From the UHGV virus genome UHGV-0148496: DNA of 16,302 nt; one strand, written 5' to 3'. Made by a program: the position numbers. Position 1 is the first letter of the stretch, and each line of letters begins with the position of its first letter. This DNA is from a virus. Below are positions 9,001-12,000 of the stretch, in pieces.

Positions 9001-12000
9001 GTGGCGCACGCCGGACAACATTTTCTGGGGAATTAACACCCTGTTTGGCCCGTTTGTTCTGGATCTGTTCACTGATGGTGATAACGCCAAATGTGCCGCT
9101 TATTACACTGCGGAAGACAACGCGCTGGCGCATGACTGGTCTGAACGTCTTGCGGAGCTTAAAGGTGCTGCCTTTGGTAATCCCCCGTACAGCCGCGCCA
9201 GTCAGCATGAGGGGCAATACATCATCGGCATGCGTTACATCATGAAACATGCCAGTGCCATGCGTGATAAAGGCGGGCGCTATGTTTTCCTGATCAAAGC
9301 TGCCACCAGCGAAGTGTGGTGGCCGGAAGATGCAGATCATATTGCTTTTATTCGCGGGCGTATTGGTTTTGAACTGCCTGCCTGGTTTATCCCGAAAGAC
9401 GAAAAGCAGGTGCCAACAGGTGCTTTCTTCGCTGGTGCTATTGCTGTTTTCGACAAGACCTGGAAGGGACCGGCAATCAGCTACATAGGGCGCGATGAAC
9501 TTGAGGCATGTGGTGAGGCGTTTCTGGCGCAGGTTCGCCAGCAGGCGGAAAAACTGGTCAGGGAGATGGCGGCATGACGACATTAACTCAATGCCAGCAG
9601 CAGGTGCTGGATATGCTGATTTCTTATCAGAAAGAACGTGGCTTCCCGCCAACCAATCAGGAGGTGGCAACCATGCTGGGATACCGTTCGGTGAATGCAG
9701 CGGTGGAGCATCTTCGCGCACTGGAGAAAAAAGGTGTCATCACGATAAAGCGTGGCGTGGCCCGGGGTATCACTCTTCATACCGCGGTGAAGGACGACGA
9801 CAGCGAGGCGGTCGGGATTATCCGCGCCCTGCTTGCCGGTGAGGCAAACGCCAGGCTGCGTGCAGCCCACTGGTTACATGAGAGGGGCCTGAAAGTATGA
9901 AGCTAATACTGCCTTTTCCGCCCAGCGTGAACACGTACTGGCGACACCCCAACAAAGGGGCGTTTGCTGGTAAGAGCCTGATAAGCGCGGCGGGGCGAAA
10001 ATTCCAGAGCGCGGCGTGTGCAGCAATAGTTGAGCAGTTACGTCGTCTGCCGAAACCAACGTCGGCACCTGCTTCAGTGGAGATCGTGTTGTTTCCTCCG
10101 GATAACCGGATCCGCGATCTGGACAACTATAACAAGGCGCTGTTTGACGCCCTGACCCACGCGGGTGTGTGGGAAGACGACAGTCAGGTGAAAAGAATGC
10201 TGGTGGAGTGGGGACCGGTTATCCCGGAGGGGAAGGTCGAGATCACTATCAGTAAGTACGAAAAAGCGAGTTGCAAATTAGCAACTCGGTAACGGAATTG
10301 AGCAACACCCTAAATTTGGGTATTACCTCGTTAAAGATACTGTATTTATGAACAGTGTATCCTTGATAACTATTAAAAATCGCAGTAAGTTCATCCTGCA
10401 TCAACGAAAAGGGAGTGCAGTCCCGCTCGTGGATAAAAATTTGTGGAGAAACCAATGAATCAGTTGCTTGTAATTGATGGCGTTTCTGTGCGTCAGTACT
10501 TCGAATCTAACTACTGTCTTAACGACCTTCAGAAAGCTGCTCTTCTTGCCGCTGGTGAGAATCGCTCCTCCCGTTCGCTGGAAGTTCACGAGTTTATGCG
10601 TCGTCCTGAAACGAAGGCTCTTGTGGAATTATTGGAAGAAGAAACTACGGGAGATTCCCGTAGTATTCCTGTCATCACCATTCAGGGGCGCAATGGTGGG
10701 ACGTATGTCTGTAAAGAGCTGGTCTATGCATATGCAATGTGGATCAGCCCGGCATTCAGCTTAAAAGTGATACGTACTTTTGATGCGCTTCATAATTCAT
10801 CACCAGAAGAAACCACATCCGACAAAATTAAATCCGGGGTCATTCTGCTTGAATCAGCAGCAAAGACTCTAAATCTGTCAAACTCCTCGAAACTTGGTGC
10901 ATACCAGAAATTATCAAAGGTAGCTGGTCTTCCTGAACTTATGCCGATCTATGCCATTGATGCACCTGCTGATGCGCCAGATGGTTCAAGCCGCCCTACG
11001 CTGTCGCTGAGTGCACTGCTGAAGCAGTATGGTATCCGCCTGACGGCTAATCAGGCATATCACCAGATGGCGAAGCTGGGGATCGTTGAACAACGCGAAC
11101 GATACAGCCGTACCGCGATTAACAACATCAAAAAATTCTGGTCGCTGACCGCGAAAGGCTGCATGTTCGGCAAGAACATCACCAGTCCTGCAAATCCGCG
11201 CGAGACGCAGCCGCATTTCTTCGAATCCCGATTTCCTGAGCTGTTAAAGCTGCTCGATACCGTTCATTGAGGTGACTGTGAGAGCACTACTGACCCCTGA
11301 AATTGCCCCGCGTATGGGGATCGTATTGTTCAGGCCAGGTTCAGAGCTGATGCCCCTGTTTATGCAGGGGCGTGTCCTGCTGGAGCCTGAGCCGGAGCGT
11401 TATTCATCTTTCGCCAGTGGTGCCGTTCCGGCGGCATCACAACCGCTGGCGGATGATCCTGCCGTTCGGGCCGTGTTCCGCCATGAGGCAGTGATCCGTC
11501 GTGCTGGTGGCGTGGAATGTCTTGAAAGCTGGTTACTTCGTGAAAAAGGCTGCCAGTGGCCTCATTCCGGATGGCACAGCGAGAACATGACCACAATGCG
11601 ACACGCTCCGGGCGCAATCCGTCTGTGCTGGCACTGCGATAACCAGCTGCGCGATCAGTTCACGGAACGGCTGGAATCAATGGCAACGGATAACTGTGCC
11701 CGCTGGGTGTTGTCTGTTGTGCGTCGGGATCTCGGTTTTGATGACAGTCACGTTGTGACAATGCCGGAACTGTGCTGGTGGCTGATTCGTAATGACCTGG
11801 CGGATGCCTTACCGGAAAGTGCAGCCCGTAAGGCACTGAGATTACCGAAGCCTGTTGTGCCGTCTGTCACCCGGGAAAGTGACCTTGTGCCTTCGGTTCC
11901 TGCCACCAGCATCATCCAGGATAAAGCGAAAAAGGTGCTGGCGCTGAAAGTGGATCCGGAGTCGCCGGAGTCTTTTATGTTACGCCCCAAACGTCGCCGC

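What the first reader, a model, noticed from the sequence alone, without database searches (positions are those of the whole stretch)
9574..9900. Phage-encoded LexA DNA-binding domain without the cleavage/peptidase module
The 108-aa ORF aligns to E. coli LexA residues 1-69 at roughly 50% identity, including the recognition-helix residues (RS-x-NAA-x-EH), but has an unrelated 40-aa tail in place of the Ala-Gly cleavage site and S24 domain. It would be predicted to recognise SOS boxes yet resist RecA-stimulated cleavage. That makes it a candidate SOS modulator or a dedicated regulator of the two LexA-box-like sites in this prophage (5119-5138 and 10338-10357). It is embedded in the replication-nin operon with ATGA overlaps on both sides, so it is expressed with early genes.
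Basis: partly seen in the sequence, partly recalled or inferred. Interest (0 to 1): 0.8.

Follow-up and report, generated by a model that had tools for sequence, protein, structure and literature searches.

The report
Prophage LexA DNA-binding domain without protease
A small gene found in prophages of about 41% of complete E. coli genomes encodes the DNA-binding half of the SOS repressor LexA, joined to a short helical tail in place of the self-cleaving half; it is already annotated, its function is untested, and it probably acts as a LexA stand-in that DNA damage cannot destroy.

Summary
ORF 9574-9900 (+) encodes 108 aa. Residues 1-65 match Pfam LexA_DNA_bind (E 2.9e-19) and residues 1-69 are 50.7% identical to E. 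coli LexA. There is no S24 peptidase domain. The ORF overlaps dam and rusA by ATGA at each end.

It is not a new discovery. The gene is annotated as 'LexA family transcriptional regulator' in 2233 of 5426 complete E. coli genomes and in phages SfII, SfIV, SfV, mEp460, cdtI and Stx2a/Stx2c phages. It belongs to PHROG 362. A LexA-DBD-only phage regulator has already been characterised (GIL01 gp6). I found no functional study of this lambdoid family.

What I add:
- The 40-aa tail is a conserved two-helix hairpin, kept in relatives of 40-50% identity. The gene is under purifying selection (pN/pS 0.09).
- Four of LexA's five base-contacting residues are kept; E44 is V.
- Phages with the gene carry about four times more SOS boxes than a control set.
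- 55 of 58 loci with the cI allele that has an SOS box inside its coding sequence also carry the gene.
- In two divergent branches the gene sits behind an SOS-box promoter.

Best reading (about 0.45): a RecA-proof LexA surrogate. 'Dedicated regulator of the two boxes' is too narrow, because many carriers have no box.

The parts
9574..9900 (+). Gene for the 108-aa LexA-NTD-only protein (RefSeq WP_000210152.1, 'LexA family transcriptional regulator'; PHROG 362)
   Evidence: ORF; Pfam PF01726 E 2.9e-19; PHROG 362 full length E 4e-59; identical CDS annotated in RefSeq; pN/pS 0.09 over 87 alleles
9574..9777 (+). Winged helix-turn-helix domain, residues 1-68 (helices 6-22, 28-35, 40-52; wing strands 56-58 and 66-68)
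   Evidence: AlphaFold model; Foldseek top hit 3jso LexA-DNA complex, rmsd 0.9 A, 50% identity; 35/69 identical to E. coli LexA; pN/pS 0.026
9688..9711 (+). Recognition-helix codons 39-46 (S-V-N-A-A-V-E-H). LexA contact residues S39, N41, A42 and E45 are kept; E44 is replaced by V
   Evidence: Alignments; contact-residue list from PMC3091678 and PMC13416735
9793..9882 (+). C-terminal two-helix hairpin, residues 74-103 (helices 74-88 and 93-103). Conserved motif EAVxxIRALLAxExxARxRAxxWLxxxG. Probable dimerisation element (inferred)
   Evidence: AlphaFold pLDDT about 90 for residues 81-100; conserved in relatives of 40-52% identity, with A97 and L101 invariant; pN/pS 0.17; no PDB sequence homologue
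9574..9577 (+). ATGA overlap: start of the gene with the stop of dam (translational coupling)
   Evidence: Sequence
9897..9900 (+). ATGA overlap: stop of the gene with the start of rusA
   Evidence: Sequence
8924..9577 (+). Upstream neighbour: phage Dam N6-adenine methyltransferase. A methyltransferase or the replication gene precedes the gene in most relatives
   Evidence: Pfam PF05869 E 1e-45; RefSeq annotation; synteny
9897..10292 (+). Downstream neighbour: RusA Holliday-junction resolvase. It lies directly downstream of the gene, or one small ORF away, in all but one relative examined (a Klebsiella phage shows no RusA nearby)
   Evidence: Pfam PF05866; synteny; Klebsiella phage without RusA
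10338..10357 (.). SOS box TACTGTATTTATGAACAGTG (16/20 to consensus) in the 150-bp rusA/KilA-N intergenic gap. Candidate target of host LexA and of the phage protein
   Evidence: Present at +764 in 17 of the 81 other loci examined. All 5 phage records with this segment also carry the gene
10443..11270 (+). KilA-N domain regulator gene downstream of the box (PHROG 129)
   Evidence: Pfam PF04383; PHROG 129
5119..5138 (.). SOS box TACTGTTTTTACATACAGTA (17/20, both arms perfect) inside the cI coding sequence, codons 70-77 in the linker. Candidate target
   Evidence: Conserved as an island in a cI that is 71% identical. 55 of 58 loci with this cI allele carry the LexA-NTD gene
4655..5347 (-). Prophage repressor cI (HTH_3 + Peptidase_S24), the true RecA-cleavable repressor of this prophage
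   Evidence: Pfam PF00717 and PF01381; translation

Best explanation
The gene encodes a small DNA-binding regulator. It joins a LexA-type winged helix-turn-helix domain to a conserved C-terminal two-helix hairpin that probably mediates dimerisation. It lacks the S24 protease/RecA*-docking domain, so DNA damage cannot inactivate it.

It is translated from the rightward early (PR-type) transcript, coupled to dam and rusA. It therefore appears only after the prophage is derepressed or after infection.

Most likely it binds CTGT-N8-ACAG-type SOS operators and takes the place of host LexA while LexA is being destroyed. That would re-silence LexA-controlled phage genes (the box inside cI, the KilA-N box, and in relatives the methylase box and its own promoter box) and possibly host SOS genes.

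Shown: domain identity, absence of S24, conserved tail, purifying selection, operon position, statistical association with SOS boxes.

Inferred: dimerisation, SOS-box specificity, repression, and the biological pay-off.
For: - Domain and fold: PF01726 E 2.9e-19; 50.7% identity to E. coli LexA residues 1-69; model superposes on DNA-bound LexA at 0.9 A.
- Contact residues: 4 of 5 are identical, and wing residues R64-G65-I66 are invariant in the family.
- No S24 domain; scores below the TIGR00498 lexA cutoff (70.7 against 110.95 bits).
- The tail is conserved at 40-50% identity and under purifying selection.
- SOS-box association: 61 of 80 gene-centred loci have a box scoring >=15/20 (0.56 per 10 kb), against 18 of 80 (0.14 per 10 kb) in lambda-NinB-centred control loci, none of which has the gene.
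- 55 of 58 loci with the box-bearing cI allele carry the gene, at 9 or more different spacings. In the phage collection the figures are 13/13 and 5/5 records (against 7, 46).
- A relative with 47% identity again accompanies a cI (71% identical) with the box conserved in a diverged linker.
- In L088 and L174 (about 40% identity) the gene lies behind a terminator, a TTGCAW-N17-AATAMT promoter and an SOS box. This resembles lexA autoregulation.
- In a Klebsiella phage, DinI lies two genes upstream.
Against: - E44, one of LexA's five contact residues, is Val here and is never Glu in the family. E45 is also replaced in some branches.
- The only characterised phage LexA-DBD-only protein, GIL01 gp6 (44% identical to its host LexA), binds a different palindrome and activates transcription.
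- Many carriers have no strong box within +/-6-10 kb: 19 of 82 close loci, plus mEp390, L084-86 and L171.
- The association could reflect block inheritance of the early region within one phage lineage rather than function. The samples are not phylogenetically independent.
- Dimerisation is not shown. Neither box in the window has a consensus promoter.
- There are no experimental data.
Confidence: 0.45

Rival explanations
1. gp6-like regulator with a private operator. The LexA fold has been retargeted to a phage-specific site that is not an SOS box, and the protein activates or represses a phage promoter in the nin/late region.
For: - Precedent: GIL01 gp6 is a LexA-DBD-only protein that binds GaCACAnnTGTGaC and activates the late promoter.
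- Contact position 44 is changed, and positions 44/45 vary across the family.
- Many carriers lack SOS boxes.
- LexA-DBD-only proteins are common in diverse phages.
Against: - No palindrome with an exact 5- or 6-mer half-site is shared among six divergent loci.
- Late-gene control here is provided by Q.
- 4 of 5 LexA contact residues are retained.
- SOS-box enrichment and co-occurrence would be unexplained.
Confidence: 0.3
2. DNA-binding accessory of the neighbouring DNA-metabolism genes, not a transcription factor. It would target or modulate the upstream methyltransferase, the replication protein or RusA.
For: - Synteny is tight and old: [methyltransferase or replication gene]-LexA-NTD-RusA, with 4-bp overlaps, in most relatives of 40-50% identity.
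- Weak wHTH similarity to O-like/DnaD_N replication proteins.
Against: - The upstream partner changes between loci: Dam, a C5-type methylase, a replication gene, or a small ORF.
- L134 has dam abutting rusA with the gene cleanly absent.
- The order of nin-region genes is conserved for many unrelated functions.
- The similarity to LexA is far stronger than to any replication protein.
Confidence: 0.1
3. SOS activator by competition. The protein occupies SOS half-sites or boxes without repressing, displaces LexA and so raises SOS/prophage induction.
For: It has the same DNA-binding fold as LexA and cannot heterodimerise with LexA's CTD. LexA homologues can activate transcription.
Against: Most SOS boxes overlap core promoter elements, so any tight binder would occlude RNA polymerase (established knowledge). 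The gene is expressed only after derepression, when LexA is already being cleaved.
Confidence: 0.08
4. Decaying remnant of a captured lexA gene with no function.
For: It is truncated relative to LexA. An Ala88-Gly89 dipeptide aligns with LexA's A84-G85.
Against: - pN/pS 0.09 over 87 alleles, none with internal stops.
- Full-length relatives at 40-50% identity keep both domains.
- Present in 2233 genomes.
- G89 is polymorphic (D/G) and the AG is not conserved in the family.
Confidence: 0.02

Closest known systems
E. coli LexA (SOS repressor), N-terminal domain residues 1-69
   Same: Same winged-HTH fold (rmsd 0.9 A), 50.7% identity, and the same residues at contact positions 39, 41, 42 and 45 and in the wing R64-G65-I66.
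   Different: - No S24 domain, no Ser119/Lys156, no conserved Ala-Gly site.
- Scores below the TIGR00498 cutoff.
- E44 is Val.
- Any dimerisation must use a different element, the 40-aa helical hairpin.
- Phage-encoded and placed in the early-right operon.
Bacillus phage GIL01 gp6 (Fornelos et al. 2018, PMC6182141)
   Same: Phage-encoded, LexA DNA-binding domain only, no protease domain, encoded in the early region and made after SOS derepression.
   Different: - gp6 is 66 aa with no C-terminal tail.
- No BLASTP-detectable similarity to this protein, so the two are independent captures.
- gp6 binds a non-LexA palindrome and activates the late promoter.
- gp6 belongs to a tectivirus of Firmicutes that has no cI.
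Engineered LexA(1-87)-dimeriser fusions (LexA-Jun zipper; LexA-based bacterial two-hybrid)
   Same: LexA DNA-binding domain plus a heterologous dimerisation element gives a repressor of SOS operators that RecA cannot cleave. This is the design the phage protein appears to have (my knowledge; usage of the system seen titles).
   Different: Those are artificial and use wild-type LexA residues. Here the tail's dimerisation and the operator specificity are not demonstrated.
GIL01 gp7, DinI and PsiB (mobile-element modulators of SOS)
   Same: Proposed outcome is the same: a mobile element damps or reshapes the host SOS response. gp7 stabilises LexA on DNA and blocks its cleavage. DinI is encoded next to a homologue in a Klebsiella phage.
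   Different: Those act on LexA or RecA proteins. This one would act directly on the operators as a LexA substitute.

Membership tests
LexA repressor (TIGR00498 equivalog; PF01726 + PF00717) | N-terminal LexA-type winged-HTH DNA-binding domain (PF01726) | tested here: met
   E 2.9e-19, 69 bits against a cutoff of 23.7, full profile coverage; structural match to 3jso at 0.9 A
LexA repressor (TIGR00498 equivalog; PF01726 + PF00717) | C-terminal S24 peptidase domain with the Ser119/Lys156 dyad | tested here: not met
   No PF00717 hit. The protein ends at residue 108
LexA repressor (TIGR00498 equivalog; PF01726 + PF00717) | Conserved Ala84-Gly85 self-cleavage site | tested here: not met
   A88-G89 aligns with LexA A84-G85 only in a zero-gain extension of the HMMER alignment. 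G89 is polymorphic (D/G) and the dipeptide is not conserved in relatives
LexA repressor (TIGR00498 equivalog; PF01726 + PF00717) | Whole-protein score above NCBIfam equivalog cutoff | tested here: not met
   70.7 bits against a cutoff of 110.95; matches model positions 1-91 of 203 only
LexA repressor (TIGR00498 equivalog; PF01726 + PF00717) | Binds the CTGT-N8-ACAG SOS box via S39, N41, A42, E44, E45 | tested here: inconclusive
   4 of 5 residues are identical and E44 is V. Binding itself cannot be tested with these tools
Phage LexA-DBD-only regulators (PHROG 362; gp6-type class) | Phage-encoded protein consisting of PF01726 without S24 | tested here: met
   PHROG 362 full-length E 4e-59. Found in 63 phage records. 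Many 65-150-aa viral structural neighbours are annotated as LexA DNA-binding domain proteins
Phage LexA-DBD-only regulators (PHROG 362; gp6-type class) | Sequence relationship to the characterised member gp6 | tested here: not met
   BLASTP found no alignment at E <= 100. gp6 lacks the tail
Phage LexA-DBD-only regulators (PHROG 362; gp6-type class) | Own operator distinct from host LexA box; transcription activation | not testable with these tools
   No palindrome is shared across divergent loci. This needs EMSA or DAP-seq
Lambdoid nin-region gene set | Position between the replication genes and Q, co-oriented and translationally coupled with neighbours | tested here: met
   ORF chain 5445-10292 and Q at 12270. 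The same order is seen in most relatives examined

The most novel reading that the evidence does not exclude
A very common prophage gene (41% of complete E. coli genomes, including Stx2a/Stx2c phages) encodes a RecA-proof LexA surrogate. It closes the SOS window from inside the induced cell. It would work together with an SOS operator embedded in the cI coding sequence, so that once PR fires, LexA-controlled phage and host genes (cI-linked box, KilA-N regulator, methylase, SOS toxins, rival prophages' antirepressors) are re-silenced regardless of continuing DNA damage.
Probability: 0.3. Interest if true: 0.8.

Novelty: new member of a known kind. Interest (0 to 1): 0.5.

Why it matters
If the protein binds SOS operators, induced lambdoid prophages, including Shiga-toxin phages, carry their own uncleavable LexA. 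That would change how the course of the SOS response is modelled in lysogens. Affected processes could include mutagenesis, SOS toxins, colicins, co-resident prophage induction and Stx output after antibiotics.

It would also explain a conserved SOS box lying inside a cI gene.

The hypothesis is cheap to test: one small protein, known operators and existing reporters.

If the protein instead has a private operator, it is one more routine phage regulator.

Tried and rejected
- Searched for a conserved operator near the gene. No palindrome with an exact 5- or 6-mer half-site and a 0-12-nt spacer is shared by six divergent loci.
- Considered A88-G89 as a vestigial cleavage site that other S24 proteases might cut in trans. 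Rejected: it is not conserved in the family, G89 is polymorphic, AlphaFold places it at the end of a helix, and the alignment extension adds no score.
- Ran consensus promoter scans at both boxes and along the operon. Nothing convincing turned up; only weak hand-found candidates.
- Tail against PDB sequences: no hit. Full-length fold search gives only poor matches (rmsd about 9 A) to BlaI/MecI/MntR-type wHTH-plus-helix proteins. The afdb50 library was unavailable.
- Homodimer prediction cannot be run with the structure tool, which handles single chains and restricted inputs only.
- Literature: four searches found no functional study of this lambdoid family. The LexA-DNA structure paper (Zhang et al. 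2010) is not held, so the exact role of E44 could not be checked.
- PADLOC: only a weak generic wHTH hit.
- 'Dedicated regulator of the two boxes': rejected as a general role because many carriers have no box.
- The dam and rusA homologues in the control loci are different alleles (30-40% identity), so they do not give a same-backbone control.
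Full report
**Observation**

Window 9574-9900 (+) is an ATG-initiated ORF of 108 codons. Its ATG overlaps the stop of the upstream dam gene (gcATGAcg, 9574-9577). Its stop overlaps the ATG of rusA (gtATGAag, 9897-9900).

- Pfam places residues 1-65 on the whole LexA_DNA_bind model: PF01726, E 2.9e-19, 69 bits against a cutoff of 23.7. It reports no Peptidase_S24.
- Against PDB sequences the best match is the E. coli LexA N-terminal domain (1lea, E 6e-16, residues 2-70 to 2-70).
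- Identity over LexA residues 1-69 is 35/69 = 50.7%.
- The recognition helix reads R38-S-V-N-A-A-V-E-H46, against LexA R-S-P-N-A-A-E-E-H.
- An AlphaFold model built on 14 family sequences (pLDDT 84) has the three helices and two-stranded wing of LexA, plus two further helices (74-88, 93-103). It superposes on LexA in the LexA-DNA crystal structure 3jso at 0.9 A over 68 columns.

**Setting**

The window is an E. coli lambdoid prophage, 99.9% identical to strain cM8a. Its genes, in order, are:

- cI (HTH_3 + S24) at 4655-5347 (-)
- cro at 5445
- a CII/YmfL-like gene
- a Rha/Ash regulator
- an HTH_36/DnaD_N replication gene
- PerC/YfdN
- Dam
- the LexA-NTD gene
- RusA
- a KilA-N regulator
- DUF968/HNH
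- Q at 12270

From cro to rusA the + strand ORFs overlap or abut, and no consensus promoter lies between them. Expression from the early rightward transcript is therefore the natural inference. The prophage's real RecA-cleavable repressor is cI, not this gene.

**Is it known?**

Yes, as an annotation.

- The identical CDS is RefSeq WP_000210152.1, 'LexA family transcriptional regulator'. At 80% coverage or more it occurs in 2223 of 5426 complete E. coli genomes (2233 with any match), with up to 4 copies per genome.
- It is present in SfII, SfIV, SfV (orf42, 'unknown'), mEp460 ('LexA DNA binding domain protein'), cdtI, Stx2a_1447/WGPS2, fifteen Stx2c phages and Stx2k. A 47% homologue occurs in mEp390.
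- It matches PHROG 362 end to end.
- Structure search of viral proteins returns many 65-150-aa 'LexA DNA-binding domain' proteins from unrelated phages.
- One such protein has been characterised: GIL01 gp6. It is a 66-aa LexA-DBD-only protein that binds its own palindrome and activates the late promoter (PMC6182141).
- Four literature searches found no functional work on the lambdoid family.

**What the family looks like**

An exhaustive HMMER search found full-length relatives of 40-52% identity. When aligned, they keep both the wHTH and the tail. The tail consensus is EAVxxIRALLAxExxARxRAxxWLxxxG, with A97 and L101 invariant.

Across 87 distinct alleles of the close clade there are no internal stops. 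pN/pS is 0.09 overall, 0.026 for the NTD and 0.17 for the tail. The tail is therefore a selected domain, not a frameshift remnant.

The tail has no PDB sequence homologue. A short amphipathic helical hairpin attached to a wHTH is the usual design of a dimerisation element. That is inference; I could not run a dimer prediction.

HMMER aligns Ala88-Gly89 with LexA's A84-G85, but this has no support. The extension adds no score, G89 is polymorphic, and the dipeptide is absent from relatives.

**Specificity**

LexA's DNA-contacting residues are S39, N41, A42, E44 and E45 (PMC3091678, PMC13416735). The phage protein keeps four of them.

- S39 is invariant and N41 nearly invariant in the family.
- The wing R64-G65-I66 is invariant.
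- E44 is Val here and is never Glu in any relative.
- E45 is replaced in some branches.

SOS-box recognition is plausible but not assured. gp6 shows that about 44% identity to a host LexA is compatible with a new operator.

**Context is ancient**

Most relatives examined share the order [methyltransferase or replication gene]-LexA-NTD-(small ORF)-RusA-(Ant or KilA-N)-DUF968-Q, usually with 4-bp overlaps. This holds whatever the immunity or replication module. The exception is a Klebsiella phage, where no RusA is seen nearby and DinI, a known SOS modulator, lies two genes upstream. In one locus (L134) dam abuts rusA and the gene is cleanly missing.

**The SOS boxes**

TACTGTTTTTACATACAGTA (5119-5138) and TACTGTATTTATGAACAGTG (10338-10357) match the 20-bp consensus at 17 and 16 positions. 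TACTGT-N8-ACAGT is expected 0.01 times per window and is found at two sites.

*The box at 10338-10357.* It lies in the 150-bp gap before the KilA-N gene.

*The box at 5119-5138.* It lies inside cI, at codons 70-77 in the linker. Comparison with a relative shows it is selected as DNA. In L087 the cI protein is only 71% identical and the 25 nt on either side of the box are diverged. Yet the box sits at the same codon offset with both arms intact.

**Association of the gene with boxes**

1. Of 80 IMG/VR loci centred on the gene, 61 have at least one box scoring >=15/20 (0.56 per 10 kb). A control set of 80 lambda-NinB-centred lambdoid loci came from the same collection with the same flanks. None of these carries the gene, and 18 have such a box (0.14 per 10 kb), mostly of the weaker CTGG type.
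2. Of 80 loci centred on this cI allele, all have the internal box. Of the 58 with 6 kb or more on the cro side, 55 carry the gene, at 9 or more different distances (2523-4703 bp).
3. In the GenBank phage set, all 13 records with this cI segment and all 5 with the KilA-N box segment are among the 63 records that carry the gene.
4. In two divergent branches (L088 and L174, about 40% identity) the same unit recurs. A terminator is followed by a TTGCAW-N17-AATAMT promoter, an SOS box (15/20 and 18/20), and a homologous 75-82-aa ORF, then the gene itself. The layout is reminiscent of lexA autoregulation.
5. Eight divergent loci hold 6 strong boxes in 83 kb, against 0.035 expected by shuffling.

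**Limits of the association**

- 19 of 82 close carriers, plus mEp390, L084-86 and L171, have no strong box nearby.
- The boxes belong to their own modules.
- The samples are not phylogenetically independent. Block inheritance of the early region could produce much of the signal.
- Host LexA would bind all these boxes anyway.

**Mechanism I commit to (about 0.45)**

The protein is a dimeric, RecA-insensitive LexA surrogate. It is made once PR fires and occupies SOS operators while host LexA is being cleaved. Its targets are phage-borne boxes where present, and probably host ones.

The rationale rests on established results that I recall but could not re-read here:

- The isolated LexA NTD binds operators weakly and dimerises on DNA.
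- LexA(1-87) fused to any dimeriser is an effective, uncleavable repressor of sulA.
- The natural NTD cleavage fragment is removed by ClpXP through its new C-terminus, which this protein does not have.

**Rivals**

- A gp6-like regulator with a private operator (0.3).
- An accessory of the neighbouring methylase, replication gene or RusA (0.1).
- A LexA competitor that raises SOS (0.08).
- A dead remnant (0.02, contradicted by selection).

**Membership**

It is a member of the LexA_DNA_bind domain family and of the class of phage LexA-DBD-only proteins. It is not a LexA orthologue: it has no S24 domain, no conserved cleavage site, and scores 70.7 bits against the 110.95-bit cutoff of TIGR00498. 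It is not detectably related to gp6 beyond the fold.

**Verdict**

- Novelty is modest, because this is an annotated family of a known kind.
- Its function is open, it is extremely common (including in Stx phages), and the surrogate hypothesis is easy to test.
- Interest 0.5.

Noticed in passing
window 5119-5138 (inside cI, 4655-5347 minus strand); L087 836-855: A consensus SOS box lies inside the cI coding sequence, in the linker at codons 70-77. In a cI that is only 71% identical it sits at the same codon offset with both arms intact, while the flanking 25 nt are diverged. This is an island of DNA-level conservation. No consensus promoter is seen on either strand, and its role is unexplained (roadblock? 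antisense promoter?).
   Followed up: partly
L088 5529-6408; L174 7530-8357: In two divergent relatives a conserved unit precedes the LexA-NTD gene: terminator, TTGCAW-N17-AATAMT promoter, SOS box, about 130-nt leader, then a homologous 75-82-aa ORF (PHROG 1813, 54% identity). There the gene itself appears to be under SOS-box control.
   Followed up: partly
window 10293-10442 and 10443-11270; L012 10713-10733: The KilA-N regulator gene comes in two forms. One has its own 150-bp upstream gap carrying the SOS box (as in this window). The other abuts rusA with no gap and no box, and has a different N-terminal half.
   Followed up: partly
L012 13920-13939; L174 10739-10758: A recurrent strong SOS box (TACTGTAAAAATAAACAGTG) lies at or just before the start of an N6_N4 DNA methyltransferase between Q and the lysis genes. 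It is present in about 30 of 82 gene-centred loci. The called start codon in L012 may be too far upstream.
   Followed up: partly
L134 around 6173: This locus has the same cI, dam, rusA and KilA-N genes, but dam abuts rusA and the LexA-NTD gene is cleanly absent. It is a natural deletion or ancestral state that could serve as a comparison strain.
   Followed up: partly
L083 1-969 (Klebsiella phage ST846-OXA48phi9.1) and 3994-4013: DinI is encoded two genes upstream of the LexA-NTD homologue. A 16/20 SOS box lies just upstream of a leftward two-gene moron between Q and the holin gene.
   Followed up: no
proteins P0131, P0152, P0156, P0160 (distant hits): These are single-chain proteins of about 160-220 aa with two tandem LexA_DNA_bind domains and no S24 domain. 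[quoted passage not shown] Their genomic context was not examined.
   Followed up: partly
window 13960-14673 (+) and 15459-16301 (+): Downstream of Q the window carries an AraC-family HTH gene and a DUF1737/SASA sialate-esterase-like gene (probable morons or tail-spike-like cargo). In the related locus L001, three tRNA genes and a nucleoid-associated anti-phage pair occupy this area.
   Followed up: no
window 6246-7397 (+): A 383-aa Ash + Rha-domain regulator with anti-repressor-like PHROG matches sits between the cII-like gene and the replication gene. It is a second potential antirepressor-type protein in the early operon.
   Followed up: no
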